Below, one piece after another: positions 16,101 through 61,838 of a stretch of DNA of 64,000 bases (position 1 is the stretch's first letter; each line of letters opens with the position of its first letter). The stretch lies in NCBI GenBank assembly GCA_964016885.1, contig OZ024740.1, positions 412,362,001-412,426,000 on the forward strand, in the 5' to 3' direction. The DNA comes from Eledone cirrhosa. Taxonomy: Eukaryota. The notes beneath the pieces are model-generated. The model had not been told where the DNA came from and searched no databases. It saw only the letters and a program-made list of their open reading frames with translations. The position numbers and the translations under genes are program-made.

Positions 16101-19100
16101 TTTCTTTATTAACCACAAGGGTTTACATAAAGTAGACATTAAGGACAGTGCAGGACAATGCAGGACGGTACAAATGGGCATTTCTGCGTGTAAAAAACAA
16201 AAACAGAGGATGTAACAAAAATAACAATGAAAATAACAATGAAAAATTCCCCAATAGGGGGGAGACTTCGGAGGGACATTTGTGGAGAAAGTCCAGTAAA
16301 AAGCCACAATGACCCTGACCACCAAGGCAAGTGCCCTCTCCCAGTTTTCCACCTTTAATTTACAGATATATACTCAGAGTAGGCCCATTCACTCGGGCCA
16401 TTCTTGCTTCTCTCACCCATCTTTCAACAAAATGCTGGGGAGAGAGCACTTCCCTCTCTACTCTGATTTTCCTTTTCAAATGAAATTTGAAAAAGTCAAT
16501 CAGAGCATCACCGAAGAGGTAAGTGCTCGTCTTCAGCCCTTTCAAACGTGTCCACCATACTATCTCTTTCGCCATGGCCACCAGACAGATAAAAACTGCC
16601 TGCCCTTCCCGGCTAAAGGAGGAGGGCGGGGAAATCCTCACGATGGACTCAGATGATAGCCGGATCCGTCCTACACGCGACAGCAGGTGTTCGACATAAA
16701 ACCACAAGTCAGCAATTTTCGGACACTGGACGAGTGCGTGCAGGACGGTTTCGTCGCCCTGCGCGCATCTCGGACATGCCCGGCTGACGGCACCTCCATG
16801 CCTGTAGAGTTTATCCCGAACTGGCAAGACTCCTCGGTAGCACTGCCAGGCCAGAGATTTCTGGAAGTTGTCCATAGGCCCTGGCCCGAAAGTTCTTCCG
16901 AAGAGATTGGCTAGTTGATTTTCGTCGACGACTAGAGTTTCCCCAAGTACGTCGTCGCTCTTCCCCTCCACTAATCCTTTATCGAACGCCGAGGTGGAGT
17001 TTCCACCTATCACATTGCCCGATTGGTCGACGGTTGTGGGCGCCTGAAGACATTCCAGTCTCCAGGCGCTACCTCTCGGTCTTCGCTTGACCCAGGCCTG
17101 CAGCTCCGTCAAGGAAACGAGCTGGGGAAATACGTGTCTAGCAAACGGCAACCACACCTGATCACCGTCGAGGAAGAGGTGGAGATGTCGTAGCCTGAAC
17201 GCGTGTCTGCGCATCATCAGCCACGGCATGCCCAGCCCTCCACGTAGCGGGTGTTGACAACAGATGGACCGCCTGACCATTGGAGCGCCTCCCTTCCACA
17301 AAAAGCGAAAGAGCAAACGCTCCAGCGCAGTCAGGTGGGGCTTAGGACAAGGTACGACGGTCAGGCGGTAGCAGATGACAGACGCGATGTACGCGTTAGC
17401 CACCTCCGCTCGACCTTTCAGGGATAGCTTCCTCTCCGCCCATTTCTGGGTGAGAGAAGCCACCCTGCTCGTCACCTCGTCCCAGTTTTTGTCCGTCTGG
17501 AGGTCCGGACCGAACCAGACCCCTAGCAATTTAACCGGTCCGTCCGTCCAGCGTCCGACAACGCTGTTGGACGGCATGTACCTGCCTCTCCAGGTGCCGA
17601 GCTGCAGGCCCACTCACTTTTCTTGGTTGATCATTGCCCCTGTCACCGCTTCGTATTCTCTTAGTGTAGTGCCGATCGCCTCGATGTGTTTGGCGTTCGA
17701 CACCACTACGGTGATATCGTCTGCATATGCTGACACGGATCTTCCGCGTCCTAGTTCACGCGGGACCCCCTCAACGTCTCCAGCACTAATGGTTCGAGAG
17801 TCAATACGTACAAGAGGGACGAGAGGGGACATCCTTTGCTGACCGAGCGCATGATGTTGAACGGTTCCGAAAGGTGACCGTTCACTCTCACCACAGAGCA
17901 GATGTCGCTGTGCATGGCAGCAATACAGCCTCTGAAGCCGGGCCCAAAGCTAGCCGCCCTCAGGACTGCCGCTAGGTAACGATGGTCGACCATATCGAAA
18001 GCTTTCGACTGATCTAAATTGATCAAGGACCCACCCGTGCCAGGTTCCCTAGCTACCCTCTCTACGATGTATCGCATGGGGTGGAGGTTGTCGTGGATGG
18101 AGCTATCGGGAATGGCGTACGTCTGCGCCTCTCCCACCAGACCACCAACGACAAGCGACAACCTCTTTGCTAGCACCTTCGCCAAAATATTGAACTCTGT
18201 GTTTAGCAGAGGTATGGGCCTAGAATGATCTATGTTATCCCCCTTGTTCGGATCTTTTCTCAGCAGCGCCACAGCTCCTCGGCTCACAGAGCTGATAATT
18301 CTCCCGTACTGTTGCCAGTTGCAGTAGACGTCCTACGAATAAGTCTGGCATTTGTACGTAAAGTTCATAGGGTAGAACAACCAAACCAGGCGATTTACCC
18401 GTTGTGCAGTCAATAATTGCCTCCCGTACTGCAGGGGCTGTTATCGGCTTTTCGCAACACTCCGCCTCAGTGGCCGAGAGTCGCGGCAGTCCGTCGAGGT
18501 AGACACTAAAGTCCATCCCACGATCCGGCCCGCCGCTGCCCCCGAACAGTTGAGCGAAGTGTCGCTGAAAAGCTTCACACATTTGCCCGGGATCGAGTAG
18601 CATGCGCCCGTCGTGGTCCACTAAGACCGGATCCTGGTTTGTTGCTACGACGCGCCTCCGCCACTCGGGCCCATTGAACGGCTTTCGGCCCCTCGTGTCT
18701 GAGAGCACGCAACCTAGCTCTGACAACGCAGCCTTCGTGCTTTGTATTGAAGAATTGGTTAAGGGCCAATTTCGCCGCAAGTACGTCTAATTTTCTTACT
18801 AGTTCTTCCTCTGCTCTATTTTTCTCTATAGCTAAAACCTTACTAAACCTAATGGACTCTATTCTAATCGCTCTTTTCAGAGCAAACCACCACTTGTTGA
18901 CGATGGCCCCCGTCAACACTCGCTTAACTAGTTCGCTAATCCGGTCTCATAGGCCTTGCGCGCTGGTAAATACGAGTTTAGCTTCCAGTAGCCGGGTCCT
19001 CGTCTATGAAGCCTATCTAAGTCAAGCACACAGATCACGAATTTGTGATCCGTGTAGCTGACTATCTTGAATTGTGGACAGCTTATGCTAGACCTATCTA

Positions 19101-21619
19101 TTTCCCTACAAAATACACTATCTAGATATGATGTGGATGACCTGATCCGATTTGTCCAAGTCCACATTGGCACATTCGGGAAATCCAATCGGTACCTGTC
19201 AGACAGTTCAAAACGCCTGAGCAGGTTGGTGAGGCTCTTGCACCCTCCTCCCCTATCCGCTAATCCCACACAGTCCCAGCGTGCATCTAAGATCCCGTTC
19301 CAGTCGCCCACTAACACTAAAGAGCGGGACGTTCCTAGAAAGGTCTCCAGCCGCCGGAACAAATCAGGCCGTCCTACCCCTGTAGGGGCATAGACGGCCA
19401 CTAGCCTGAAAGCTTGCCCGTCTCCGCTGGTCACGTCCAGCACCACCAACTTACCTTCTGGGTCCAGGAAGATGGCGCGTATGGCGAGATCCAAACCTCT
19501 CTGAAAAAGCACAGCAAATCCACCACCCCCGATCCAGGACGGCTGGGAGATGCGTACACATCGTAGACGCAGAAGATCGGTGCGAAGGCCCGTGCTTCGG
19601 AGATTCTGGTCTCGCTGATGGCCACTACATCTATGTTTAATGACCTGAGGTCGTTGAGCATGTGGCTCTGCTTCCATGACGACCCCAAGCCACGCGCATT
19701 TATGCTGCCTATTCTGAGTGAGGTCATGTTGAAATGGAGTGGAGAAGATGGAAATGACCACTTACCTTACTTCTTCTCGCAGAGGAAGGATTGTTTCACC
19801 ATCTCTTTTCACTTGATCGTCTGGTGAAGGGACCGCTGAATCGCTCCTTCGGCTGGTCGTCGGCTCTTCTGTGAGTATATCCGAATATACCCTCCGGTTG
19901 AGTGTCCCCACTAGGTCTCTGAAATCACCAACTGCGTTGGGGAATTTCGTTTTAATGTTTGTGTATTGTTTCTGTGCTATTTTTACCTGTCTTATGTTCG
20001 TTGGTGTTTTGATTGGTGCTGGTATTATGTAGTCGTGCTGTGAAATGTCTGTGTGTTCAATTATGTAAGTCATTAATTTCTTGTTGGGCGGTGGATTGGC
20101 AGTATCGGTAGAGGGTCGGACGCCATGCTTTGACGTATAGAGTTACGGCACTTTATGATCTGAGCTCAAATCCCGCCGACGAGGTTAACTTTGCCTTTCA
20201 TCCTTATGGGGTCGATAAAATAAAGTACCAGTCACGCATTGGGGTCGATTTAATCGACTTCCTCCCACCCCACCCCCAAATTACTGGCCTTGTGCCTATA
20301 TAAGAAACAATTAATTTCTTGTTGTGTGTATTTATTGCTGTGCATTTGTTTTTCTGGGGGTGGGGTGAGGTTCTGCTTTGTTCATTTCGTTGTTGCTGGG
20401 TGTGTGTGTTTTGTTGTGTTTGCGATGTTGGTGCTTGTGGTGGTGGTGTTGAAGGTGTTGTTGGCGGTGGGGTTGCCGCCGGTGGTGATGGTGGTGCTAG
20501 TGTGGGTGGTGATGGTGTTGGTGGTGTTGCTCATGTAAGTCCTTTTGCAGTAGCCTTTACCCTTTTTTCGTTTCTTTGCTCCCTTTTCGAATACAACGAT
20601 GCGCTGCTTCTGAGTTTGTGCCTTCTTGCGACCTTTTGTCATCCCTCTCCCATCTCACACTCCATGTCCGAATCTGTGAGGTCGGGGAGGGGTATCAGCT
20701 CCATTCTTTTACTTGTTGTTGGTGATGTTTGCAGTGGAGTCTCTGTTGCTGCTGGAGTTGGTATTGCTGTTGTTGTTGTTAATACTTCCACTGCTGCTGC
20801 TGTTCTTGATTTCCGTGGCGTGGGTATAGGTGCCACGGACCTATCCTTCCTGGTTGCCGCCTGTCCTGTTGCAGGTAGCAGTGGAGCCGGTTTCGGAAGA
20901 AAGGGGGTTTTCTCCTTTCTCAGGGTGTTCTCATTGCAGAAGGCCCTGAGGTGAGTCTTCGATCCACAGCGAAAGCATTTGGGGCGTTTGCCCTCAACAC
21001 TTATGGGCACTTGAGTGCCGTTATCGAAGTCTATAACATCCGGGATAGCTTCGATGCACTCCTGGTTGGTTTGGATTAACATCTCAATGGAGGTGCCGAC
21101 TCAATCTTCTCGTACTTTTTTCTGTACTTGCAGTACAGTTGTTTTGTCCTCGATTCCGACGAGGACAGACGCGGCCAACCACGAAGGGGCCAACCAATTG
21201 GTGTCAGTTTGACCCTCACAATTTTTGTCCGCAGTAGGATAGCACCAACAACATTTGCTCGCTCCTTAGGGTCACTAAGGATTGAGCCTTTGCCTCCTGG
21301 GGTGTGGCAAAAAGCACGTCCACGGTGGCATATTTCTTGCCTCAGGTGATATGCGTTTTCCGCTGCCACACATACCCTAAGGCTTTTTGTATTTGAGCCT
21401 CTGTGGCCCTTTCAACCCTATCGGAATTTGTGCTTTCTGTATGGTACGTGACCGTACAGTGCTGTTGTGTTTCGACAAATTTTTCGGCTGCCTTGCAGAT
21501 TGCTCGGTGTCCGGTTTTCGTCACCATCTTCTTCGCTTCCTCTAATTCCTCATTTGTTATAAAGATGGTTTCCAGGCTCTTTGCGATACCTGCAAATGAG
21601 ATTGGTTTTTCTTTGCTGC

Positions 21620-25037: not shown

Positions 25038-28000
25038 GCATAACAACTGGAACGAGATTGGTCTATTTAAATTAGAAGAACAAAAATTGGCCGGGCAGGC
25101 TCGGGTAATAAGAACTAATTGGTGGATAAGCGAGCTGGAACTGGAGGGACTCAGCAGAGAGATTGGATTGGAAATGGAGAGTGGAGTATGCCAGGAAAAC
25201 GAGCCAGATGGAGATGAAGGTGAAGAGGTTGAGAGAGAGGAGGAAGCTTCCGAAGCAGATAATGATCTGAATGCTGAAATTGTTTCTACTTTAGCCACAA
25301 GGCCAGCAATTACCCAGTGCATTACTGGTACTTTATTTTATCGACCCCGTAAGGATGAAAGGCAAAGTCATCCTCGGCGGGATTTGAACTCAGATCGTAA
25401 AGGGACGTAACTATGCTGGAAAACATGGCGTCCGACCCTCTACTGATACTGCTAATCCACCGCCCTTGAAATAAATAATACCTGGAACAAAGATACGGCA
25501 ATTGAGGAGATGAATGCTGACGGGCTAGGACAAGATTTGGTTGATATCCTAAACTTAGTGGTAGATGAAATGAACAATGATAGTGGGAAACCTATGAACC
25601 TAAGATTTGTAGACAGGAAAAAGTTAAAAGAAACAACAGCTAAGGTAAACAAAGTCATCCCATACCTTGAGGCGAGGAGCCTTCACCAGTGCAACAATAT
25701 CCTCAAAGCAACAGCAAATGCGGTGAGAGAATAACTTTGCATAAAATCGAGAGGAAACAACAAACAAGAAAGATCAGAGCCTTGGTGGAAGAAACGACTG
25801 AATGGTTCAATCAGGGAAATGAGAAATGACATTGAAAAGCTTGAGTCACTACTGAATGGGACACTAAAAACATAGACACTAAAAATAGATTAGAAATAAA
25901 GTACAAAACTAGGAGAAAAAAACTAAATATTATCATAGAGGAACTGATGCAACACATTGTAGCAAAGAGTGCAAAAATTAGGCGATACGAGTGCAGAGTC
26001 AGTCAGTATAGACAGAACCGCATGTTTGACAACAACCAGAAGATGTTGTTTTGACAGCTTGAAGGGAAAGAAAGAGGCAACGACTTGATCCCTGAGGTGG
26101 AACAAACTAAGACATTCTGGAGAGGAATATGGGAGCAGGATGTTAAACATAATGACCAGGCAGTGTGGATTGAGACAGTACAATATCAGTGAACAAGCAC
26201 ACCAACAAACTGATTTGAGTATCACAGTTGAAACTCTTAAGGGGCAGGCCAAAAAACTAACCAACTGGAAATCATCAGGCTCAGATGGTGTGGAGGGGTA
26301 TTGGATTAAAAATATAACATCCCTCTACCCGAAACTGACAACAATGTTCAATGACTGCTTGATGTCAGGTGAGGTACCAGAGTGGTTGACAAAATGTACC
26401 AACTATAGACCTATCACATGTCTGTCCGTAATGTGGAAACTATTGACAAGCATTGTGTCTGAGGAAATCTACCATCACCTCCACACAAACAACTTGTTAC
26501 CGGACGAACAGAAAGGATGCTGAAAGAAGTCCCGTGGTACAAAGCACCAGTTACTTATTGATAAGATGGTAATGAGGAATTGCAAGAGGAGACACACTGG
26601 TCTTGCCATGGGATGGATAGACTACAAAAAGGCATTTGACATGGTGCCTCATTCTTGGATCACCAAAAGCCTAGAGATCTTCAGGGTGGCAGATAACATC
26701 AGACAGTTGTTGAGAAAAAGTATGAAGTCCTGGAAAACAGAGTTAACATCAGCTGGAGAATCCTTGAGAGGCGTGAAGATCAAGAGAGGTATCTTCCAGG
26801 GAGATAGTCTCTCCCCTCTGTTGTTTGTCCTTGCCCTGATGCCCCTGACCATTATACTGCGAAAGGTGAGAGCAGGATACAAGTTGGGAAAAGGAGAGCT
26901 TACCATCAACCACCTCCTCTTCATGGATGATCTTAAACTCTTTGGGAAGAGTGAGAAGGAGTTGGATGTACTTGTTGACACTGTCCGTATTTTCAGCAAT
27001 GATATATGTATGCAATTTGGTATTAGTAATTGTGGAGTCCTTGTGATGAAGAGGGGTAAATTGAGAAGCAACGGAATCCAGGTACCAACAGGTGAGATGA
27101 TAAAGGAAATTGACACTGAAGGGGAATTCAAATATTTAGTTGTTCTGGACGCAGATGACATCAAGAACAAAATAATGAAGGAATTGATAAGATCTGAATA
27201 CACAAGGAGAGAAAGGAACATAGTAAAATCACATCGAAATAGTAGACATGCCATAAGTGCAGTAAATTCCCGAGCTGTGTCTATTATTAGGTACAGTGCG
27301 GGAATTCAGAAATGGAATGTTGCTGAACAAATAGGAAGCTATTGACTATCTTCAACATGTTCCACAAGAGGAATGATGTCGATAAACTCTACTTAAGGAG
27401 ATCTGAAGATGGAAGAGATCTTATCAGCATAGAGGACTGTGTTCCCATGTAGAAAAAACCCTGCACAAATACGTGACCGACAGTAGGGAGCCAATGCTCA
27501 GAATTGTACTGAAGGAGAGAACAATAGACCAGGGCATGTCCAAGAAGGAAATAACAAGGAGGAAGACAAACCTTCATGAAAAATCCCTTCATAGTACCTT
27601 CTTTGAGAAAACTGAATTTAGAGATCCACAGACATGGAACTGGTTGAAAAGAGGAGACCTTAAAAAGGCTACAGAAGGAATGATAATGGCTGCGCAAGAG
27701 CAGGCCCTCAAAACGAAGTGGCTGAAACACCATATTTACAAGGAGTAGGCTAGCCCACTGTGTAGGATCTGTGGAGAGAAAGAGGAGACTGTGGCTCACA
27801 TTGTATCCGAGTGTAAACACCTAGCCCAGACTCACTATAAAGGCTGCAGACATGATGTGATGGGCAGGGTGATCCACTCGCACCTATGCAAAGTAAACAA
27901 TTTACTACATTCTGTGAAGTGGTATGAGCATAAGCTATAGTCGGAGATAGAAAACGATAAGGTGAAGGTGCTTTGTGATTTTAGGATACAGACGGACAAG

Positions 28001-34736: not shown

Positions 34737-34914
34737 CAAAGGAATTGTGGTAAGGAACCAAATGGACCATAACGCACCTGAGTACTCAATACTTAGGGTA
34801 GTAGAGTGGGAAATAGGAAAAATTATGACCCCGACGACAGAGCTCAAGCCATTTCGACGGCTATTTCAGTCGAAACGGCTTGAGCTCTGCCGTCGGGGTC
34901 ATACTTTTTCCTAT
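34735..34914. mobile_element. Hairpin-ended element in (TA)n; second copy in opposite orientation at 45136-45330
   Basis: About 46 bp arms (ATAGGAAAA...TTTCGAC / GTCGAAA...TTCCTAT) plus a unique tail GGTAAGGAACC...GGGTAGTAGAGTGGG. Confidence 0.75.
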
Positions 34915-38109: not shown

Positions 38110-39575
38110 AGAAATGAAGTTACCTTGGAATAGATTTATTGGTCCGTATATTTGGATTTCACATCCATCGTCAGTGTTGTACGAAGGAACTTCAGAAGTT
38201 TGTCTGAAAACATCCATGTGGCCGTTTGTTGCTAGTGTCAGTCTGATTGAAATACGCCAACGTATATACCCTATCATGCGCGTGCGCACGAAATCAGCAT
38301 GCTCATTCAGAGGTCATTAAATTTTGTGTGATTTGACTAGCCATCACGGAAAAGGGAGATGTCAACTTTGATGTCTACAGCAAGGCAGCTGCAGGGACAT
38401 TTTCGTACACTTCAAGTATGTCCTTTCTAACAGAGCTAAGAGAGGATACATCACAAAAGAGGTTACGTCGGTAAAACATAGATACAGTGATCCCGTAAAT
38501 TGCGTCAACCACACCAGCAGTTCAAGAGGGTTTTGGAAGCCAACAGCTGTCTAGCATCATCCACGAAAGGAATAAGGACCTCCAGACAAAGGTGGTGGGG
38601 AAACCTGAGTGACAAGTGTTTCCTCAATGTACCGCACCTGGGCGAAAGAACGCCCCCAGCGTTATCCACAAGGGCAGGTCTCGATATACAATTGACCTCA
38701 ACGGGTCCATCTTTAAGGATATGCCTCTCAAAGAAGCAACATAACGTGGATAATACGTGCTCCCTCAGTAATTTCCCGATACGCCACACAGATTGTTGCT
38801 TGCACATATATGGGGTGTATGAAATCTAATGTGACATGTACAAGGATTGTTACATCGGCAGCTTCATTCGACCGTTGCACATACGAATGAAGGGTCACAT
38901 CATCATTAGAACCTCGTCTTTTCGGAAACATGTCACGAAATGTGGACATAGGGAGACAAGACTCATCGTCACAGCGCAAACAAGAGAACGCACCATTGGA
39001 ACTCACACGAACAAAAAAGGTCTTTGGATCAAGTGACTAGGACCACCAATCAACGACAGTTACGAAAGAAGCGAAACGCGGTGGCTTGTCTAACCCCAAA
39101 TTACGATACCTAAACAAACACCATATCAGACGAGAGAATTGGGGCTATTGTATATTTCAACCACCTGCTGGCATATAAACAAACAAACAGACGGACAGGC
39201 TCTGCCTGCTGCTATGCTATACCCACCACCAGTTGTTTGCCCACCTGCCTACCACATCAATCAGAGCTAGTACGAGAATGGAAGGAGACAACAATTGTCA
39301 CATGTGTGGGCGCGGTCTGCCATATCACATCCATCCCACGCCCTAGTGACTACTACTAATCTTTATCTCTGACTAATAGTGCCAGTCTCGCTTGAGTGCT
39401 CTTCGGAGGAATGTACGTTAGCGTACTTCAATCAGTGTGACACCAACACTAGAAACAAATGGCCACATAGTTTGTTTTCCAATAAACTTCCGAAGTTCCT
39501 TTGGACAACCCTGGCGATTGTTGTGAAACGTAAAATATAGGTTACCAATAAAACTATTTCAAGTTAAATTCCTGT
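38110..39575 (+). mobile_element. 5'-truncated Penelope-like element (RT C-terminus + GIY-YIG) with inverted pseudo-LTR
   Basis: Plus translation FDVYSK..DIFVHFK, then TCSLSNFPIRHTDCC..GVYEI*CDMYKDCYIGSFIRPLHIRMKGH (GIY-YIG). 38110-38275 is an imperfect inverted copy of 39413-39570, which includes a CTGACGA..GAAA hammerhead relic. Confidence 0.8.
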
Positions 39576-40640: not shown

Positions 40641-40690
<50 letters not shown>

Positions 40691-40793
40691 AGAAATGTTA
40701 GCTATCGCCGTATTTTGACTAAATAAATTAAAGAAATTATTTAGCCTGATAGTGGGGTTAAGAACCCTCGGAGAAATGGAAAAAGATGAGCAT

Positions 40794-40865
40794 TGACGTA
40801 TATGGGGGTCGAACCCACATCTTTGGTTGTCCGGACCACTGTGCTACCATTTACACCAACACATC
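40794..40865 (-). tRNA. tRNA-like 72-nt cloverleaf within the 271-bp unit (non-canonical anticodon loop CCGGACA)
   Basis: A-box TGGTGTAAATGG, D-stem GTGT/GCAC, T-arm GTGGG-TTCGACC-CCCAT, acceptor GATGTGT/ATACGTC; T5 about 9 nt downstream. Confidence 0.6.
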
Positions 40866-41064
40866 GCCCGTCTTTTTGCATTCAAATTAGAAGCTATAAA
40901 CTTAGCGATTCTAATGTCAAGTAAGAATATTTTCGAAACAGCGAGTGGATTTGAAATTATTAGAAATGTTAGCTATCGCTGTATTTTGACTAAAGAAATT
41001 AAAGAAATTATTTAGCCTGATAGTGGGGTTAAGAACCCTCGGAGAAATGGAAAAAGATGAGCAT

Positions 41065-41136
41065 TGACGTATATGGGGGTCGAACCCACATCTTTGGTTG
41101 TCCGGACCACTGTGCTACCATTTACACCAACACATC
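41065..41136 (-). tRNA. tRNA-like copy in unit 2
   Basis: Same sequence as 40794-40865, shifted by 271 bp. Confidence 0.6.
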
Positions 41137-41531
41137 GCCCGTCTTTTTGCATTCAAATTAGAAGCTATAAACTTAGCGATTCTAATGTCAAGTAAGAATA
41201 TTTTCGAAACAGCGAGTGGATTTGAAATTATTAGAAATGTTAGCTATCGCTGTATTTTGACTAAAGAAATTAAAGAAATTATTTAGCCTGATAGTGGGGT
41301 TAAGAACCCTCGGAGAAATGGAAAAAGATGAGTATTGACGTACATGGGAGTCGAACCCACTATCTTAAACCCACTATCAGGCTAAATAATTTCTTTAATT
41401 TCTTTAGTCAAAATACGGCGATAGCTAACATTTCTAATAATTTCAAATCCACTCGCTGTTTAGAAAATATTCTTACTTGACATTAGAATCGCTAAGTTTA
41501 TAGCTTCTAATTTGAATGGAAAAAGACGGGT

Positions 41532-41603
41532 GATGTGTTGGTGTAAATGGTAGCACAGCTGTCCGGATAACCAAAGATGTGTGTTCGACTCCCATGTACG
41601 TCA
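41532..41603 (+). tRNA. tRNA-like copy in the inverted arm
   Basis: GATGTGTTGGTGTAAATGGTAGCACAGCTGTCCGGATAACCAAAGATGTGTGTTCGACTCCCATGTACGTCA, then ATACTCACC and a T run. Confidence 0.55.
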
Positions 41604-41766
41604 ATACTCACCTTTTTTTCCATTTCTCCGAGGGTTCTTAACCTCACTATCAGGCTAAATAATTTCTTTAATTTCTTTAGTCAAAATACGGCGATAGCTA
41701 ACATTGCTAATAATTTCAAATCCACTCGCTGTTTCGAAAATATTCTTACATATATATATATATATA

Positions 41767-42661
41767 CGAGGTGTGTCAGAAAAGTTCCAGAACTGATGTC
41801 ACAAAAGATTTATTTCAAACTCAATCTTCACACTAAGAGTTTTCTCCTTCAAATTAATCCCCCTGGAGTCTAATGAACTTTTCCATACTTTTCTGCCACG
41901 CGTGCTTGCACCCCTGGAAGGATTCCTCCGGGATCCTCCGCAGATCCGCCGTCACGGACATTTTGGTGTCGTCCACGTCTTCAAAACGGGTCCCCTCCGG
42001 GTCCTACTCGAAGATCCATGAATCGTCACCGGTGATAACTGTCCCTAGCAAGTCTGGTTCGGTTTAAAGACGCTTGAGGATATCCTGGCACACTTGCATG
42101 CGTCGACCCTTCTGGTCATCGTTCAGGAGCTTTGGCACCATCTTCGCGCAGACTTTCCGCATGTCCAAATCTTCAATGAGAATCTTCCAGAGGCTGTCCC
42201 GATTCATGCCAAGCTCATTTGCCATTCGTCGAACAGCCAGCCGACGATCGCTACGCACCATCTGCCTGACGCGCTCAACGTTGACATCAGTCCTGGTTGT
42301 TGAGGGCCTTCCGCTCCTGGGGTCATCTTCCACGTCCTCGCGTCCTTCTTTAAACCTCTTGCACCACTCAAAAATACGTGAGCATGACATCGTCTCATCT
42401 CCATACACTTGCTGCAGCAATCCCAGTGATTATCACGGAGTTTTCAAGTTTGTTCGTTGCTCTGTGCTCATTACTTGACGACCTAAAACAGAGGACATGT
42501 ATGTAAAATTATGAAGAAAAAAGTTTGATCGCTGCAGAGAGCTAAGATTACAGTTACATATTCCAGGGGGATTACTTTGAAGGAGAAAACTCTTAGTGTG
42601 AAGTTGAGTTTGAAATAAATCTTTTGTGGCATCTGTCCTGGAACTTTTCTGACACACCTCG
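41767..42661 (-). mobile_element. Internally deleted mariner transposon with ~100 bp inverted ends, TA TSD
   Basis: CGAGGTGTGTCAGAAAAGTTCCAG at both ends in inverted orientation; ORF 42064-42420 MLQQVYGDE..WCKRFKEGREDVEDDPRSGRP..KVCAKMVPK is a mariner HTH domain; most of the DD34D core is deleted. Confidence 0.93.
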
Positions 42662-42829
42662 TATATATATACACACGCATAAACTACACCAAATATTAAC
42701 GATCACAGACCTATCAAATGATAAACCTACCCAAGTAAACATCTTGTTGAGTCAAACACCACTGGATGCTGAAACACTTGTTATAACTACTCTAACCCTG
42801 AAATAGGAAAACCCAAAAGGATATATCGT

Positions 42830-42907
<78 letters not shown>

Positions 42908-43649
42908 TAGACACACTATCACACTATACACAAATGATTGTATATATGTGTGTACAAGCGACAGTCTGTGTGAGTACCTGTGCGTTCCTGTGTGTACCTT
43001 TTTGCAGGATGTTTTTCTTCAATGTTTCTCCTTTTTCCTTACGCAGTATGCTTTCAATATGTTCCACCAATTCTGTTCGTTTTTACAATAGTTATATATT
43101 GTAATTATGTTCATTGTTTTTACATATTTTGCGCATAAAATCACTGATTTCTTTTACATTTCAGATCATTCTTAAAATAAAACAAATAAACTTAAGTGCA
43201 GAAGTAAAGTAAATTGAGGGCGATAAGTTTATTGTGTGATATGCTTCAGAGACAATGAAAAATAATTAGTTATGAAAGGAAAAATGTTGAATTTAAATAA
43301 TAGGATATTTTCTGTAATGTCATGTCAATACATATTTTCGTCTAAGTTTAAAATAACTTCTATGAGAGTGTTCTTTTATTATTCGACTAATTTTTTCGAT
43401 AATTAAAATATCATTCAACGCTACGCATTTTCTTTATTTGTTTTCGTATTTTAAATTGGTTCTACAAAGATGGAAGTTTGTATGAATGTTCCAAGCTGTA
43501 AAATACACTCTGCACCGACGTAGCTTAAAGTTTTTAGCGCGTACATCATTTCAAGATGGCCATCGACAAAATGATCTTTTCTTAGAACGTTTAAGAGCAC
43601 CATCCGGAATGGCTGTTTCTTGAAGTGTATCGTATAATATAATGCAAAA

Positions 43650-43752
43650 TGTAAGCTTGCGCCGTATGTTTGACTAAAGAAATCTTAGCCTGATAGTGGA
43701 ATTTAGCATCTTCACAGAAATGCAAACAGATGACTATTGACGTCAATACTCA
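43650..43752 (+). repeat. Old diverged fragment of the 271-bp family
   Basis: GCCGTATGTTTGACTAAAGAAATCTTAGCCTGATAGTGG...AGATGACTATTGACGT. Confidence 0.7.
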
Positions 43753-45135: not shown

Positions 45136-45139
<4 letters not shown>

Positions 45140-45326
45140 AACAAGTAAGACCCCGATGGCTGAGCTCAAGCCGTTTCGACGGCTAATTCTGTACTGAATT
45201 AGCCGTCGAAACGGCTTGAGCTCAGCCGTTGGGGTCTTACTTGTTCCTATTACCCACTCTACTACCCTAAGTATTGAGTACTTTGGTGCGTTATGGTCCA
45301 CCTGGTTCCTTACCAGATTTCCTTCG

Positions 45327-45359: not shown

Positions 45360-45367
<8 letters not shown>

Positions 45368-45624
45368 AATATAAGCTGTCGCCGTATTTTGACTAAAGAA
45401 ATTAAAGAAAATTATTTAACCTGATAGTGGGGTTAAGAACCCTCGGAGAAATGGAAAAAGATGAGTATTGACGTACATGTACGCATCTTTTTACATTTCT
45501 CCGAGGGTTATTAACCCCACTATCAGGCTAAATAATTTTCTTTAATTTCTTTAGTCAAAATACGGTGATAGCTTACATTTATAATTTCAAACTCACTCGC
45601 TGTTTCGAAAATATTCTTACTTGA
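45360..45624. repeat. Palindromic copy of the 271-bp family (tRNA part lost)
   Basis: About 105 bp arms around GTACATGTAC; ends at GCTGTTTCGAAAATATTCTTAC like the 41749 terminus. Confidence 0.85.
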
Positions 45625-45812
45625 TATATATATATATATATTATTTTATTTACTTATATGTAGATAGATGGAGAGAGAAAGAGAGAGAAAGTAAGATGGG
45701 GTGGATACATAAAGATAATATGTATGCATATTTGTGTTTGTCGGAAAATTTGAATATGTGTCCAGGATAATATGCTGCAAAGAAATCTGTGGTTATATAA
45801 ATGTATTATTTA

Positions 45813-54620: not shown

Positions 54621-56688
54621 GTTCTTTGAGTCTCAGTCATTGATGTTAGTTAACTGGAAAGTTTGTTGAAATGAATATCAAGCCACTACCTGCAGCCTCA
54701 GATATTCAGGACGTATCGGAGGGTTCTTGCTGTTCGCAGCAAGCATGCCTTTTGAAGTGTCCAAAATGCGGAGCGGGGCCAATTTTCTTTAACCATCCGT
54801 GGAAACTCTTTGATATAGTACCTAGTCATAGACAATCCGGACCACTTTGACTTCATGGCAGTTCCAAATCCTTTTTACCTCCCACTTTAAGTCCCGGTAT
54901 CGGTTAATTCTCTCCCTCTTCTTCTCTTGCACTCTCGTGTCAAATGGGCAGGCCGCATCCACAATCAGGCAGGATCTCTTTTCCTTGTCCAAAACCACCA
55001 GGTCAGGTCTATTGTGTTCCAGTTTCTTGTCCGTCTCCAGCCTTTATAGTGAGTCTGGGCTAGGTGTTTACACTCGGATACAATGTGAGCCACAGTCTCC
55101 TCTCTCTCTCCACAGATCCTGCACAGTGGGCTAGCCTACTCCTTGTAAATATGGTGTTTCAGCCACTTTGTTTTGAGCGCCTGTTCTTGCGCAGCCATTA
55201 GCATTCCTTCTGTAGCCTTTTTAAGGTCTCCTCTTCTGAACCAGTTCCATGTCTGTGGATCTCTGAATTCCGTTTTCTCAAAGAAGGTACTATGAAGGGA
55301 TTTTTCATGAAGGTTGCTCTTTCTCCTTGCTGTTATTTCCTCCTTGGACATCCCCTGGTCTATTGTCCTCTCCTTCAGTACAATTCTGAGCATTGGCTCC
55401 TTGCTATCCGTCACGTATTTGTGTAGGTTATTTTTCTCAATCGGAACACAGTCCTCTATGCTGATAAGACCTCTTCCACCTTCAGATCTCCTTAAGTAGA
55501 GTCTATCGACATCACTCCTCTTGTGGAACATGTTGTAGATAGTCAATAGCTTCCTAGTCTTCCTATCCACTTCTTTTTGTTCAGCAACATTCCATCTCAG
55601 AATTCCCGCACTGTACCTAATAATAGACACAGCTCGGGAATTTACTGCACTTATGGTATTCCTACTGTTTAGATGTGACTTTAATACGCTCCTTACTATC
55701 CGAATGTATTCAGACCTTATCAATTCCTTCATTTTTCTGTTCTTGATGTCATCAGCCTCCAGAATACCCAAATACTTGTATTCTTCTTCATTTTAATTTC
55801 CTTTATCATCTCACGTGTTGGTACCTGGATTCCGTTGCTTCTTCTCAATTTACCCCTCTTCATCACCAGGACTCCACACTTACTAATACCAAATTGCATA
55901 CTTATATCGTTGCTGAAAATACGGACAGTGTCAACAAGTACATCCAACACCTTCTCACTCTTCCCAAAGAGCTTAAGATCGTCCATGAAGAGGACGTGAT
56001 TGATGGTAAGCTCTCCCTTTCCCAACTTGTATCCTGCTCTCACTTTTCGCAGTATAATCGTCATTGGAATCAGTGCAAGGACAAACAACAGAGGGAACAG
56101 ACTATCTCCCTGGAAGATACCTCTCTTTATCTTCCCCGCTTCCAAGGATTCTCCAGCTGATGTTTTCCAGGACTTCATCCATTTGCTCAACAACTGTCTA
56201 ATGTTATCTGCCACCTTGAAGATCTCTAGGCTTTTGGTGATCCAAGAATGAGGCTCCATGTCAAATGCCTTTTTGTAGTCTACCATCCCATGACAAGACC
56301 AGTGTGTCTCCTCTTGCGTGTCTCCTCTTACCATCTTATCAATAAGTAACTGGTCCTTTGTACCACGGGACTTCTTTCGGCATCCTTTCTGTTCGACCGG
56401 TAACAAGTTGTTTGTGTGGAGGTGATGGTAGATTTCCTCATACACAATGCTTGTCAATAGTTTCCACATTACGGACAGACAGGTGATAGGTCTATAGTTG
56501 GTAACATCATTGCCCTTGATTTGGTCTTTCATTACCAGAACTGTGGTACCTTTTGTCAACCACTCTGGTACCTCACCTGAAATCAAGCAGTCATTGAACA
56601 TGATTGTCAGTTTCGGGTGGAGGGATGTTACATTTTTAATCCAATACCCCTGCACACCATCTGGGCCTGGTGATTTCCAGTTGGTTAG

Positions 56689-56690
<2 letters not shown>
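54621..56690 (-). mobile_element. 5'-truncated R4/Dong-like family B copy
   Basis: ORFs 55729-56655 (NYRPITCL, YKKAFD, IFQGDS, FMDDLKL) and 55136-55771; closely similar to 26255-28393. Confidence 0.92.
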
Positions 56691-56728
<38 letters not shown>

Positions 56729-59700
56729 GGCGACCTACGTAGTAAATCGTATCATCGTGAGCTCCGCAAAGGTATGTTGTTTTCAGTTGTTTAAAATTGC
56801 CATTTATGGGAAAAATTTATTGTTAACTGTATATAATTGCACATACATTGTTTTCTGAAAAGGACACTCAAAAAGATTGGGGCCTTGAGCCCAAAATTTA
56901 AACTTTTATAATTATCAAACAAAAATTTATTTGAAAAAAATTATGGATGACTCACAGTCACACCTTCTTCACAAACTAACACCTCACACCGACACCATCA
57001 TTGTAAATATTATTACGTTTGCCAACACTAAAAATATAAGCAGTAACAATATTTTAAATTCGTCTCAGGCAGACATTCATTTCCCGCCATTACCAATGAC
57101 TGCAGGTGTTAAAGCCGCCACCACCACCACAGCGACAACAGAAACAAAAGAAAAAAATAAATTAACTCGTGATATCGAAATGAATTCAACCAAAATGAAC
57201 TCTTCCACACCGAAAACCAATGACGCCACCACCACCACAACGGAAACGAGAATTAACAATAAAAAAAATAACGATAACACCAACAGCAACAATGAAAGAA
57301 AGAAAACTACCCTGAGTTTTGCCAGAGTAGCAAAACAGTGCGAAGCATTCCAGATAACTCAGGAAGAATTAGAAGAAGCCAAAAATATGGTAAAGAAAGA
57401 TTGGTACAGGGTCAGCCAACCCCCCCCCCCCCCACCACACACACACACCTAATAAAATGGAGCATCGGCGCCTATGCACCGTGTCTTATCGGACGATTAG
57501 CATAAAATCGCGCCGAGTGGAACGGGCATCCGAGTCCCAAATCCAAAGAGCTTTGGGACATGTGTGGGCAAAAAAACCCCACATCAGAAGTGGGTGGAAA
57601 TATGGAACCGTGGACGTGTTCTTTGAATCACCACAGGAGGCCAGGGAACACTCCATTGTCCAATTAAGAAGTGACGACTTCACACTCGTCCCAAGCTATT
57701 GTGACCAGAGACTCGTGAAGATCAGGGTGACCCACGTTCCACCGGCCATCAAAAATCCCTGGCTAATAGCTGCCGTCCTCGCCGGCATCGAAGCCAACAC
57801 CAAGATAATCGAAATAGCGAAAGAAAAGCAGGATAAATGGTCCGGATCTGGGATGGAGCTCCTGATCCAAGCGGACTCAAAAAGCATTGAGGAGATTCCA
57901 GAGGTAATAGACCTCACTGACGGCAGCCACCTGACATTAATCGTAGAGGGCAGAAGGCCTAGGTGTGTCGTTTGTTGTGAAGGAACCCACCTAAGGGCTT
58001 TCTGCCCTCAGGCTAAAATGTTGAGGCCACCTCTTTTTACCCACCCCAGTGGCTCAACCATTAACACCACCAGCAGCAGAAATGGCAGCAACAGCTGTAG
58101 CAGCAACAACAGAAGCAACTGTAACAGCAACAACCCCAGCAACAGTAGCAAAACAAACACCACCACCACCCAACGCACCAGAACTAGCACCAGCGCCTAC
58201 ACCTTCCACCTAGCCACAAACAAAACCAACGCCTGTGGAGGATTTTTCACTCCACGGTCTATCACAACTTTAGACAAATTGTGACGACGAGGAGTGGGAA
58301 ACGGTATCAGGACAAAAGCAAAAAAGAAACCAAAAAAGAAAAAAATTCTCTCCCTTCCCCCTCCAAAAACAAAATACAGAGGGAAACAAATAAACTATCA
58401 AACAAAAAAGTTAGGACAGATATGCCACCATCCACACCAGCATCACCAACCCCATCACCACAAACACCGACACCATCACCATCATTAACACCAACACCAA
58501 CATCACCTACACCACAAAAGTTACCAAAAAGCGAAACAGAAACAAACCCACAACAAACGCAAAAAAAACAAAACAACCAAAACGATACACACTACACAGC
58601 ATTAAATTTGAACAACAACCAACTATTACACTACATCCAACACAACACCAGCATCACAGAAAAAGACTACACAACAACCCAAAAGTTAACACCGCCTCCA
58701 CACATACAAATCACTCGCATCCCACAGAAAACGTACACGTCACTAAAACAAAAATTCCCCAAAGACATCGTAGACTTCCGACGAACACTCTCCAGGAGGA
58801 TTTATAAGGACATCCTTCTGGAGGAGGCCACAAGCAGTGAAAAGGATGGAGAAAACATCCTTCCTCTACGAGAAGTAAGGTAATTGGTCTTTCCCATCTT
58901 TTCCACTCCATTTCAACATGACCTCACTCAGAATAGGCAGCATAAATGCGCATGGGTTGGAGTCGTCATGGAAGCAGGGCCACATGCTCAACGACCTCAG
59001 GTCACTAAACATAGATGTAGTGGCCACCAGCGAGACCAGAATCTCCGAAGCACGGGCATTCGCACCGATCTTCGGCGGCTACGATGTGTACGCATCTCCC
59101 AACCGTCCGGGATCGGGGGCAGGAGTTGCTGTTCTTTTTCGGAGAGGTTTGGATCTTGCCATACGCGCCATCTTCCTGGACCCAGAAGGTAAGTTGGTGG
59201 TGCTGGACGTGACCAGCGGAGACGGGCAAGCTTTCAGGCTAGTGGCCGTCTATGCCCCGACAGGAGCAGGGCGGCCTGATTTCTTCCGGCGTCTGGAGAC
59301 CTTTCTTGGAACGTCCCTGGTTACTGGAACGGGATCTTAGATGCACGCTGGGACTTTGTAGGATCAGCGGATAGGGGAGGAGGGTGCAAGAGCCTCACCA
59401 AGCTGCTCAGGCGTTTTGAACTGTCTGACAGATACCGATTGGATTTCCCGATTGTGCTAATGTGGACTTGGACAAATCGCATAGGGTCTTCCAGATCATA
59501 TCTAGATAGAATATTTTGTAGGGAAATAGATAGGTCTAGCATAGGCTGTCCACAATTCAAGATAGTCAGCTACACGGACCCCAAATTCGTGATCTGTGAG
59601 CTTGACTTAGATAGGCTTCATAGACTAGGTCCCGGCTACTGGAAGCTAAACGCGTCTTTACCAGCGCGCAAGGCCTACAGAGACCGGATTAGCGAACTAG

Positions 59701-61820
59701 TTAAGCGGGCGTTGACGGGGGCCATCGTCAACAACAAGTGGTGGTTTAATCTGAAAAGAGCAATTAGAATAGAGTCCATTAGGTTTAGTAAGGCTTTAGC
59801 AATAGAGAAAAATAGAGCAGAGAGTGAATTAGTTAGAAAATTAGACGAGGCGCTTAGCAAAGGCATCGCGACCGACGTACTTGCGGCGAAATTGGCCCTT
59901 GACCAATTCTTCAATGCAAAGCAGGAAGGCTGCGTTGTGAGAGCTAGGGTGCGTGCTCTCAGACACGAGGGGACGAAAGCCGTTCAATCGGCCCGAGTGG
60001 CGGAGGCGTGTCGTGGCAACAAAGCCACGATCCGGTCTTTGGTGGACCACGACGGGCGCATGCTACTCGATCCCGGGAAAATGTGTGAAGCTTTTCAGCG
60101 ACACTTCGCACAGCTCTTCGGGGGCAGCGGCGGGCCAAATCAAGGGATGGACTTTAGTGTTTACCTCGACGGACTGCCGCGGCTCTCGGCCACAGAGGCG
60201 GAGTGTTGCGAAAAGCCGATAACAGCCGCTGAAGTACGGGAGGCAATGACTGGCTGCACAAGGTGTAAATCGCCTGGTTTGGATGGTCTGCCCTATGAAC
60301 TTTACGTACAGATGCCAGTGTTGTTCGGAAGCCTCTTGGCGGACTTCTACTGCAACTGGCAACAGAACGGGAGAATTCCCAGCTCTGTGAGCCGAGGAGT
60401 TGTGGCGCTGCTGAGAAAGGATCCGAACAAGGGGGATAACATAGATTATTTTAGACCCATACCTCAGCTCAACACAGAGTTCAAGATTTTGGCCAACGTG
60501 CTAGCAAAGAGGTTGGCGCTTGTCGTCGTTGGTGGTCTGGTGGTAGAGGCGCAGACGTACGCCATTCCCGACAGCTCCATCCACGACAACCTCCACCTCA
60601 TGCGATACATCGTAGAGATGGTAGCTAGGGAACCTAGCACGGGTGGGTCCTTGATCAATTTAGATCAGTCGAAAGCTTTCGATAGGGTCGACCATCGTTA
60701 CCTAGCGGCAGTCCTGAGGGCGGCTAGCTTTGGGCCCGGCTTCAGAGGCTGTATTGCTGCCATGCACAGCGACATCTGCTCTGTGGTGAGAGTGAACGGT
60801 CACCTTTCGGAACCGTTCAACATCATGCGCTCGGTCCACCAAGGATGTCCCCTCTCGTTCCTCTTGTACGTATTGACTCTCGAGCCATTACTGCACAAAC
60901 TGGAGACGTTGAGTGGCGTCCCGCGCGAACTAGGATGCGGAAGATCCGTGTCAGAATATGCGGACGATGTCACCGTAGTGGTGTCGAACGCCAAACACAT
61001 CGAGGCGATCGGCACTACACTAAGAGAATACGAAGCGGTGACAGGCGCAATGATCAACCAGCAAAAGTCAGTGTGCCTGCAGCTCGGCACCAAGAGAGGC
61101 AGGTCCATGCCGTCCAACAGCGTTGTCGGACGCTGGACAGACGGACCGGTTACATTGCTAGGGGTCTGGTTCGGTCCGGACCTCCAGACGGACAAAAACT
61201 GGGACGAGATGACGAGCAGGGTGGCTTCTCTCACCCAGAAATGGGCCGAGAGGAAGCTATCACTGAAAGGTCGAGCGGAGGTGGCTAACGCGTACATCGC
61301 GTCTGTCATCTGCTACCGCCTGACCGTCGTACCTTGTCCTAATTCTCGCCTGACTGCGCTGGAGCGTTTGCTCTTTCACTTTTTGTGGAAGGGACGCGCT
61401 CCGATGGTCAGGCGGTCCATCTGTTGTCAACACCCGCTACGTGGAGGGCTAGGCATGCCGTGGCTGATGATGCCAAGGCACGCGCTCAGGCTACGACATC
61501 TCCACCTCTTCCTCGACGGTGATCAGGTGTGGTCGCCGTTTGCTAGACACGTATTTCCCCAGCCCGTTTCCTTGACGGAGCTGCAGTCCAGGGTCAAGCG
61601 AAGACCGAGAGGGAGCGCCTGGAGACTGGAATGTCTTCAGGCGCTTACAGCCCTCGACCAATCGGGCAATGTGATCGGTGGAAACGACACCTCGGTGTTC
61701 CATAGAGGATTAGTGGAGGGGAAGAGCGACGACGTACTTGGGGAAACTCTAGGCCTCGACGAAAATCAACTAGCCAATCTCTTCAGAAGAACTTTCGGGC
61801 CAGGGCCTATGGACAACTTC
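56729..61820 (+). mobile_element. Tx1/L1-clade LINE, copy T5: 5' intact after (ATT)n, 3' end deleted
   Basis: Preceded by (ATT)n at 56696-56728; ORF1 pieces with CVVCCEGTHLRAFC; ORF2 with APE and RT; homology to T2 stops at GPMDNF. Confidence 0.95.
56931..58883 (+). pseudogene. T5 ORF1 (frameshifted; Thr/Asn-rich regions, zinc knuckle)
   Basis: ORF pieces 56931-57452, 57457-58284 and 58281-58883. Confidence 0.8.
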
Positions 61821-61838
61821 TATTTAGCTTCTATTTAG
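58918..61838 (+). pseudogene. T5 ORF2 (APE + RT), one frameshift near 59320, C-terminal CCHC domain missing
   Basis: 140 aa + 799 aa ORFs with SPGLDG, FRPI, DQSKAFD, HQGCPLS, YADD and LLGV. Confidence 0.92.

What the first reader, a model, noticed from the sequence alone, without database searches (positions are those of the whole stretch)
40685..41749. 271-bp TA-embedded unit carrying a self-terminated tRNA look-alike, arranged in tandem and inverted
Seen: each unit has a 72-nt cloverleaf with A and B boxes, followed about 9 nt later by an oligo-T terminator, so Pol III would make a tRNA-sized RNA rather than a full SINE transcript. The anticodon loop CCGGA(C/T)A lacks U33 and there is no long variable arm, so it is unlikely to decode. 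Copies are partial-tandem plus inverted and share a fixed terminus (...TTTCGAAAATATTCTTAC then TA) here and at ~45620. Established: that geometry and TA-microsatellite targeting are typical of Penelope-like elements. Inference: a non-autonomous Penelope-mobilised element that may use tRNA processing (RNase P/Z) in place of a hammerhead to cut multimers, or that spreads Pol III/TFIIIC sites.
Basis: partly seen in the sequence, partly recalled or inferred. Interest (0 to 1): 0.8.

Follow-up and report, generated by a model that had tools for sequence, protein, structure and literature searches.

The report
tRNA-carrying hitch-hiker of Penelope retrotransposons
This is one copy of a thousands-strong, non-coding mobile repeat that carries a tRNA look-alike and was likely pasted in by Penelope-type retrotransposon enzymes; its copies break off at the tRNA's T arm only in subfamilies that keep base A58, which suggests the cell handles this part of the copied RNA like a real tRNA.

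Summary
Observation confirmed. The 271-bp unit is one insertion of a family with over 2,200 exact motif hits genome-wide and at least five related subfamilies. Insertions sit in (TA)n as partial tandems with an inverted arm. In 36 of 48 two-armed loci one arm ends at a fixed site and the other 33-39 nt further on: the Penelope 'tail'. No hammerhead was found. The tRNA core is the best-conserved part, sits on a long leader/trailer helix and does not look decoding; two-sided covariation is absent. New here: 5' ends of copies pile up just 3' of A58 (43 of 64 loci). The pile-up is missing in an old subfamily with T58 (3 of 62) and present in an equally old one with A58 (9 of 13). A second pile-up at tRNA +3 to -6 fits a Pol III start. 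There is no peak at the RNase Z site, and most arms run past +1, so efficient multimer cutting is not supported. Best reading: a Penelope-dependent passenger with an internal Pol III tRNA promoter, the analogue of Cassandra/Helenus. The mobilising partner is unidentified and no RNA data were available. The scan noted this architecture before in four other genomes.

The parts
40659..40684 (.). (TA)n target, left side
40685..40955 (-). whole unit 1 of the inverted arm; its outer end (40685) is terminus T1, unit position 271
40794..40865 (-). tRNA-like domain of unit 1, with A and B boxes; A58 at 40809
   Evidence: ARAGORN; Rfam RF00005 45.5 bits
40780..40784 (-). T5 run, 9 nt after the discriminator; 3' strand of the leader/trailer helix and candidate Pol III terminator
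   Evidence: sequence; fold of typical copies
40956..41226 (-). whole unit 2 (reference for unit numbering); shares six private letters with unit 1 that the plus-arm unit lacks, so units 1 and 2 likely arose by a local duplication
41065..41136 (-). tRNA-like domain of unit 2; G1 at 41136, A58 at 41080
41142..41153 (-). purine-rich leader that pairs with the T5-containing trailer (41046-41057); one pair is broken in this copy
   Evidence: sequence; folds; subfamily comparison
41227..41360 (-). 5'-truncated unit 3 (unit positions 138-271); ends at the 5' base of the T stem
41356..41375 (.). inversion junction with a short shared word and a small duplication
   Evidence: junction sequence
41363..41441 (+). 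5'-truncated start of the plus arm (unit positions 193-271)
41415..41459 (+). hairpin across the unit junction (7-bp stem, large loop holding terminus T1); forms only in tandem RNA; one two-sided change against subfamily B
   Evidence: sequences
41442..41714 (+). whole unit of the plus arm with a decayed tRNA-like domain (41532-41603)
41715..41749 (+). 35-nt 'tail', ending at terminus T2
41750..41766 (.). (TA)n target, right side; an unrelated mariner-type element follows
45360..45627 (.). second insertion of the family: minus arm ends at unit position 152 (inside the A58 pile-up), plus arm ends at T2; no whole tRNA
43647..43743 (-). third, decayed copy (73% identity), 3' part of the unit only

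Best explanation
The stretch is one insertion of a non-coding repeat family with Penelope-type ends, likely copied by the reverse transcriptase and GIY-YIG endonuclease of Penelope-like elements, and its tRNA module most likely serves as an internal Pol III promoter. Shown: tandem and inverted arms in (TA)n; two fixed 3' termini 33-39 nt apart; a conserved tRNA core on a leader/trailer helix; A58-linked and tRNA-start-linked pile-ups of 5' ends. Inferred cycle: (1) Pol III starts about 4-6 nt upstream of the tRNA in one unit; most transcripts probably stop at T5, and a minority read through into the next unit, which forms the junction hairpin. (2) A Penelope-type protein binds there, nicks (TA)n on both strands and starts cDNA inside the RNA at T1 and T2, giving inverted arms and the tail. 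(3) Copying runs 3' to 5' and usually stalls on entering the T arm when A58 is present, because the domain is folded as a tRNA (tight elbow, bound protein or m1A58). (4) Runs that get through stop at the RNA's 5' end or, on longer templates, regenerate a whole unit with its promoter. The tandem thus plays the part of the pseudo-LTR, as the LTR does for Cassandra and Helenus. The Penelope-passenger part alone I put at about 0.93; the promoter role is the uncertain part.
For: Ends: of 82 loci taken in genome order, 48 have two arms; 36 pair T1 with T2, 1 pairs T1 with T1, none T2 with T2, and 11 have one other end. 80 of 98 3' ends meet microsatellite. This matches the two internal start sites and the tail in PMC11167929 and the layouts in PMC8557442. 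Direct same-sense joints to Penelope-type coding pieces occur in L004/L061 and L159. Constraint: the tRNA core is 85-97% alike between subfamily majorities against 66-85% downstream. A58 link, one count per locus: 43 of 64 (A, A58), 9 of 13 (I, A58, old), 3 of 62 (O, T58); Fisher p 3e-14 and 1e-6. I and O are equally diverged, about 10% from their own majority, and share the T stem and its palindromic words. Subfamily B: 9 of 28 arms by script, about half of 100 rows by eye. Start-site pile-up: 17 of 96 arms end at +3..-6, 2.4% per nt against 0.3% just upstream, with a sharp edge at -6. The sense strand of A has one run of 4 or more T per unit.
Against: Subfamily O has T58, so its B box is broken, yet it spread (1,090 candidates) and kept the cloverleaf: a promoter cannot be the module's only use. 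The start-site pile-up is not significantly stronger in A than in O (7 of 19 against 5 of 32 loci, p 0.10). 70 of 96 arms pass -6, which needs two read-throughs of T5 or a promoter outside the unit. Subfamilies C, I and O carry further T4-T8 runs. The long leader helix cannot form in a transcript that starts at -5. No m1A misreading mark: A58 is changed in 5 of 225 copies (2.2%) against 2.3% for other A's, and the stops peak at 62-66, not 59. No covariation above shuffles. No autonomous element sharing the terminal sequence was found among 50 GIY-YIG loci or 29 Hydra loci.
Confidence: 0.55

Rival explanations
1. The tRNA module is a processing signal, as mascRNA is in MALAT1: long read-through transcripts are cut by RNase P (and Z) at the tRNA, standing in for the hammerhead of retrozymes.
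For: Ends do gather at -1..+3 (11 of the 17 in the zone). An extended acceptor stem made of an A-rich leader and a U-rich trailer promotes RNase P cleavage in MALAT1 (PMC8457004). The helix is kept in all subfamilies, with G-U swaps and a matched 2-nt lengthening on both strands in O. No hammerhead is present. It needs no B box, so it would also cover O.
Against: No peak at the RNase Z site (1 seen, 1.0 expected). 70 of 96 arms pass the cut site, and 6 end at -4 to -6, upstream of it. The bulge here is 3 nt on the 3' side, not the single 5' bulged A of MALAT1. Naiads spread without a hammerhead (PMC8557442).
Confidence: 0.2
2. The tRNA fold is a handle rather than a promoter or cut site: it stabilises the RNA, gets it exported, or brings it to ribosomes where new Penelope protein appears; transcription comes from outside the unit. 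The anticodon loop, self-complementary in four of five subfamilies, might also dimerise two templates for the two arms.
For: O kept a perfect cloverleaf with a broken B box. The fold is kept although it cuts most copies short. Loop words TCCGGA, TCTGGA and TCGCGA and CCGG in O can all pair with themselves. Arms of different families are joined in single insertions (L004, L010, L237).
Against: Does not by itself explain the sharp edge of 5' ends at -6. The loop argument rests on one double change, which would keep a palindrome about one time in three by chance. Nothing here tests binding or export.
Confidence: 0.19
3. An ordinary LINE-dependent tRNA-SINE, or a passive tandem satellite holding a dead tRNA.
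For: A and B boxes are present; 34 of 82 loci have a single arm.
Against: The tRNA lies inside the unit, not at its head; 48 of 82 loci have inverted arms with T1/T2 asymmetry; no A-tail; copies are dispersed, not arrayed; the tRNA is the best-conserved part.
Confidence: 0.04
4. A cluster of working tRNA-Ser genes.
For: ARAGORN and Rfam call it a tRNA.
Against: The anticodon differs between subfamilies (GGA, CGA, GGC); position 33 is C, G or U; position 37 is mostly U; there is no long variable arm; 81 of 98 arms lack a whole tRNA.
Confidence: 0.02

Closest known systems
Animal non-LTR retrozymes (Cervera and de la Pena 2020, PMC7229834; Li, Clavereau and Pollet 2026, bioRxiv 10.64898/2026.07.22.740005)
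   Same: Non-coding units of about 170-400 nt in dispersed tandems, proposed to be moved by Penelope-like elements.
   Different: They are defined by a type I hammerhead; none was found here. The preprint does not contain the word tRNA. Here the Penelope link rests on the ends themselves.
Non-autonomous Chlamys elements such as MRC1, and the Naiad/Neptune/Hydra insertion layout (Craig et al. 2021, PMC8557442)
   Same: Partial tandems, inverted 5'-truncated arm, tail, microsatellite target, no hammerhead needed.
   Different: No tRNA module is described (the word occurs once, for selenocysteine). They usually resemble their partner at the 3' end; no such partner was found here.
TRIMp3: Cassandra, Helenus, Ajax (Kojima 2024, PMC10886601)
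   Same: A small-RNA gene inside the terminal repeat, read as a Pol III promoter that is regenerated through the repeat; non-decoding tRNA in Helenus.
   Different: Those are LTR elements with primer site, purine tract and 4-5-bp duplications. This one has Penelope ends; the paper does not mention Penelope.
Sm-alpha / Sj-alpha of schistosomes (PMC2770079, PMC6155905)
   Same: A short non-autonomous repeat with a tRNA-derived part, over 10,000 copies; its hammerhead ties it to retrozymes.
   Different: It keeps a hammerhead and is filed as a SINE. Its tandem form and Pol III boxes I know from recall only (the 1998 paper was not held). It is the nearest precedent and lowers the novelty.
mascRNA of MALAT1 (PMC8457004)
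   Same: A tRNA-like domain inside a longer RNA, with an A-rich leader paired to a U-rich trailer.
   Different: A single-copy host RNA cut efficiently by RNase P and Z, with a one-base 5' bulge; here a mobile repeat with a 3-nt 3' bulge and no RNase Z peak.

Membership tests
Non-autonomous passengers of Penelope-like elements | Partial tandem copies and an inverted 5'-truncated arm | tested here: met
   48 of 82 loci have two inverted arms; tandems
Non-autonomous passengers of Penelope-like elements | 30-40-nt tail on one end only | tested here: met
   36 of 48 two-armed loci pair T1 with T2, 1 T1/T1, 0 T2/T2; tail 33-39 nt in A, about 60 in B, about 50 in O
Non-autonomous passengers of Penelope-like elements | AT-rich or microsatellite target | tested here: met
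   80 of 98 3' ends meet microsatellite
Non-autonomous passengers of Penelope-like elements | Autonomous partner with a similar 3' end | tested here: inconclusive
   No profile match in 50 GIY-YIG loci or 29 Hydra loci; no Naiad was sampled; two direct joints to different Penelope-type families
Non-LTR retrozymes | Type I hammerhead in each unit | tested here: not met
   Descriptor found none on either strand of six natural stretches; the control in L061 was found; no Rfam hammerhead hit
Non-LTR retrozymes | Unit of about 170-400 nt in tandem | tested here: met
   271 nt (A), about 287-290 (B), 289 (O); most copies are shorter than one unit
Non-LTR retrozymes | Abundant linear and circular monomer RNA | not testable with these tools
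   No RNA run was on offer
tRNA-derived SINEs | tRNA head at the 5' end of single copies | tested here: not met
   The tRNA is internal; 17 of 96 arms end near its start and 70 run past
tRNA-derived SINEs | Intact A and B boxes | tested here: met
   Met in A, B, C and I; not in O, which has T58
tRNA-derived SINEs | A-rich or LINE-like 3' tail with target duplication | tested here: not met
   3' ends are T1/T2 directly on (TA)n, no A-tail; a duplication cannot be read inside (TA)n; LINE 3' ends were not compared
tRNA-derived SINEs | Pol III transcription | not testable with these tools
   Only indirect: pile-up of 5' ends at +3..-6
TRIMp3 (Cassandra, Helenus, Ajax) | Two direct LTRs around an internal part, 4-5-bp duplication | tested here: not met
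   None of the 82 loci shows this layout; primer site and purine tract were not searched
Functional tRNA gene | U33, purine 37, stable anticodon, long variable arm for Ser | tested here: not met
mascRNA-type processing signal | Extended acceptor stem by leader/trailer pairing | tested here: met
mascRNA-type processing signal | Efficient RNase P and RNase Z cleavage | tested here: inconclusive
   Read only from copy ends: some at -1..+3, none in excess at the RNase Z site, most arms pass

The most novel reading that the evidence does not exclude
A distinct class of mobile element: ribozyme-free, tRNA-headed SINE equivalents moved by Penelope-like elements, in which the head is circularly permuted into the middle of the unit. 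Their genomic copies record how the host treated the template RNA (Pol III start site and A58-dependent tRNA maturation), so 5' junction maps can be read as a fossil RNA-processing assay.
Probability: 0.45. Interest if true: 0.8.

Novelty: new variant of a known kind. Interest (0 to 1): 0.62.

Why it matters
SINEs ride LINEs, and TRIMp3 elements ride LTR retrotransposons. A tRNA-bearing rider of Penelope-like elements would fill the third slot, and automated annotation would hide it among SINEs or pseudo-tRNAs. How Penelope templates are transcribed and picked is an open question; a 271-nt natural substrate with two mapped start sites is a small test system for the in vitro assay of PMC11167929. 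The A58 contrast between age-matched subfamilies gives a direct prediction: one base should switch the stall on and off. It also shows that the module is kept although it truncates most copies, so it must pay for itself.

Tried and rejected
RNA evidence: no RNA holder listed; this says nothing about expression. Source tRNA: unresolved. The genome's tRNA-Trp genes share the D-arm pattern but match 44 of 72 at best, no better than the tRNA-like part of an unrelated element (41-45 of 72); only subfamily A was compared, as the script stopped after it, and only Trp, Thr and that element were on hand. A phage search gave nothing meaningful. Partner: a 15-of-17 match between the tail end and a Neptune-type family's 3' region did not hold up in a profile search and was dropped. 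A Hydra-type family joined to one copy shares no terminal sequence. An RT-family search returned nothing because I set the E-value too strictly. Hammerhead: a half-core-like word lies in the tail of A but is lost in B and C, and no 5' core exists. m1A58 misreading mark: not seen. Covariation: none above shuffles; 90.7% of cells pair against 29-57% for slid partners. Terminator avoidance: holds in A and B, fails in C, I and O. Both arms end near the tRNA start in 7 of 16 inverted loci (read by eye), but snap-back synthesis could give this, so I did not count it and redid the main test once per locus. Palindromic words as the sole cause of the T-arm pile-up: rejected, since O has the same words without the pile-up.

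Full report
1. Observation. The stretch 40685-41749 is a two-armed insertion in (TA)n: 2.5 units on the minus strand and 1.4 units on the plus strand. I number the unit in the tRNA's sense (reverse of 40956-41226): G1 is position 91, A58 is 147, the discriminator 162, T5 172-176. ARAGORN and Rfam call the tRNA (45.5 bits). Two more pieces of the family lie at 45360-45627 and 43647-43743. The host genome has 3.0 Gb. I take it to be an octopus from recalled resemblance; that was not tested.

2. The family. A 21-letter motif of this subfamily (A) has 2,236 exact hits, control 0. Related subfamilies: B (1,778 candidates), C1 and C2, an old one, O (1,090 candidates), and an old intermediate, I. Contigs of a second organism cover part of the unit, tRNA included, in 6 records. 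For unbiased counts I took the 100 motif hits listed in genome order, which fall in 82 loci after dropping 7 overlapping fetches.

3. Ends. In tRNA sense, both outer ends of an insertion are 3' ends. They fall at position 271 (T1) or at 33-39 of the next unit (T2). Of 82 loci, 48 have two arms: 36 pair T1 with T2, 1 pairs T1 with T1, none T2 with T2, and 11 have one other end; 34 have one arm. 80 of 98 3' ends meet microsatellite. T1 lies in the loop of a hairpin that forms only across the unit junction; its stem has one two-sided change between A and B. This is the pattern explained in PMC11167929 (read: parts 1-2 of 4), where a Penelope protein nicks AT-rich DNA on both strands and starts cDNA at two internal sites, and drawn in PMC8557442 (read: passages and supplement hits). 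That a Penelope-type protein moves this family is an inference from these marks.

4. The tRNA module. Between subfamily majorities the core is 85-97% alike, the downstream part 66-85%. Changes fall in the loops or keep pairs through G-U, with three breaks: one leader pair in A, pair 27-43 outside O, and the top of the acceptor stem in B. There is no covariation above shuffles (49 copies). Leader and trailer form a 12-16-bp helix under the acceptor stem, so T5 is also a helix strand; O lengthens both strands by 2 nt. The anticodon loop varies (CCGGATA, CTGGATA, CGCGATA, CCGGCAA), so decoding is unlikely. The source tRNA is unresolved. No hammerhead was found.

5. Where copies break off. 47 of 98 arms have their 5' end at positions 146-160, against 3.6 expected from the background of 0.5% per nt (four calls were corrected by hand for a private letter in the yardstick copy). 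Counted once per locus by the deepest arm, 43 of the 64 A loci that reach the acceptor 3' strand end in the 16 nt up to the T loop. In O, whose T loop has T58, 3 of 62 do (p 3e-14; 65 loci after dropping 5 duplicates and 2 non-O loci). Age could explain this, so I sampled subfamily I by its 3' part only. It is as diverged as O (means 10.6% and 10.2%), has A58 in all 5 arms that show the loop, and 9 of 13 loci end in the zone (p 1e-6; values entered by hand, one internal deletion dropped). B is weaker: 9 of 28 arms by script (p 0.013 against O), about half of 100 rows by eye. O shares the T stem and its palindromic words, so these alone are not the cause. A58 is not the only difference between O and the rest (59, 22, 27 and the leader differ too), and the copying enzymes may differ. 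The cause may be m1A58, which Trm6/61 adds to pre-tRNA (PMC10275265, passages) and which blocks reverse transcriptases (my own knowledge), or a tighter elbow, or a bound protein. Against m1A58: stops peak at 62-66, not 59, and copies that pass A58 show no misreading (5 of 225, against 2.3% for other A's). I rate structure or bound protein slightly ahead.

6. The tRNA's 5' end. Of 96 arms that reach the D arm (loci held for the first rows), 17 end at +3..-6, 2.4% per nt against 0.3% upstream; 6 more end at +4..+8, and 70 pass on. Once the 3' strand is copied no helix is left to stall the enzyme there, so a physical RNA end is the simplest reading. Six ends at -4 to -6 and the sharp edge fit a Pol III start; those at -1..+3 fit either that start or an RNase P cut. 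The RNase Z site shows no excess (1 seen, 1.0 expected). The contrast with O is not significant here (7 of 19 against 5 of 32 loci).

7. Partner. Neptune-, Penelope- and Hydra-type elements and a further family (L061) all sit in (TA)n here. A profile of the unit's terminal region matched none of 50 GIY-YIG loci or 29 Hydra loci; no Naiad was sampled. Two insertions join the unit directly, in the same sense, to Penelope-type coding pieces of different families (L004/L061, L159), and others join it to a second non-coding TA element (L010, L237). Shared machinery is likely; the partner is not named.

8. Mechanism. Best reading (0.55): an internal Pol III promoter regenerated through the tandem, with leaky T5. 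Its main weakness is O, which spread with a broken B box. Rivals: RNase P processing (0.20), a tRNA fold used as a handle (0.19), an ordinary SINE or satellite (0.04), a working tRNA gene (0.02).

9. What is known. It works like a non-LTR retrozyme (PMC7229834, passages; bioRxiv 10.64898/2026.07.22.740005, parts 1-2 of 5 and passages) but fails the hammerhead test. It works like TRIMp3 (PMC10886601, passages) but has no LTR layout. Sm-alpha joins a tRNA-derived part to a hammerhead (PMC2770079, PMC6155905, passages) and is the nearest precedent. MALAT1 supplies the leader/trailer parallel (PMC8457004, part 1 of 5). PMC4209133 (part 1 of 4 and passages) gave the hammerhead forms. Two octopus repeat papers do not describe such a family in the parts seen (PMC13282606, part 1 of 3 and passages; PMC8967140, passages). 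Searches found no description of a hammerhead-free, tRNA-bearing Penelope passenger; subscription journals, Repbase and Dfam were not covered. Four earlier notes of this scan report the same layout in other genomes. They are unchecked and not independent support. A look-up for the A58 pile-up among them found nothing.

10. Verdict. A real, ordinary-sized TE family of an apparently undescribed make: new variant of a known kind, interest 0.62. The A58-linked stall is the most original and most testable part.

Noticed in passing
L083, L085-L093, L497-L499 (e.g. L497:1223-3076): A second, unrelated TA-inserted non-coding element of about 1.8 kb with an internal tRNA-like gene (68-72 bits for the best copies, anticodon varying), 160-180-bp inverted repeats, and a terminal hairpin whose loop occurs in both orientations (flip in most copies, flop in L093/L499). 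Mechanism unknown.
   Followed up: partly
window 45138-45326 and 34739-34914: Another short TA-embedded element with an inverted arm, common in the loci fetched and joined directly to the tRNA-bearing family in L010 and L237; probably a second Penelope passenger.
   Followed up: partly
window 41767-42663: Mariner-type element with terminal inverted repeats and a broken, internally shortened transposase frame on the minus strand, inserted in the TA run right of the finding (family name from recall of the motifs).
   Followed up: partly
L061:1349-3790: A Penelope-type element with C-terminal GIY-YIG and a minimal hammerhead in its 3' region; three of its peptide words are absent from the supplement of PMC8557442, and its clade was not assigned.
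   Followed up: partly
L407-L435: A Hydra-type family (1,212 candidates) with long open frames in several copies, resembling but distinct from Hydra-1_Obim.
   Followed up: partly
G000:C4 near 277.41-277.44 Mb and 353.39-353.49 Mb; G000:C1 near 243.65-243.68 Mb: Tandem arrays of tRNA-Trp(CCA) genes (dozens of copies) and of tRNA-Thr genes.
   Followed up: no
window 16363-19761, 26524-27342, 55732-56751, 59283-61835; 38351-39066: The window's long frames are LINE-type RT and endonuclease pieces, plus a decayed Penelope piece; no host gene domain was found among the 9 frames of 250 aa or more.
   Followed up: partly
subfamily O, e.g. L303:1536-1646: O has T58 and G59 in place of A58 and C59. An A-to-T change is a known misreading of m1A (recalled), so O may have been founded by such an event; untested, and the young copies show no excess of it.
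   Followed up: no
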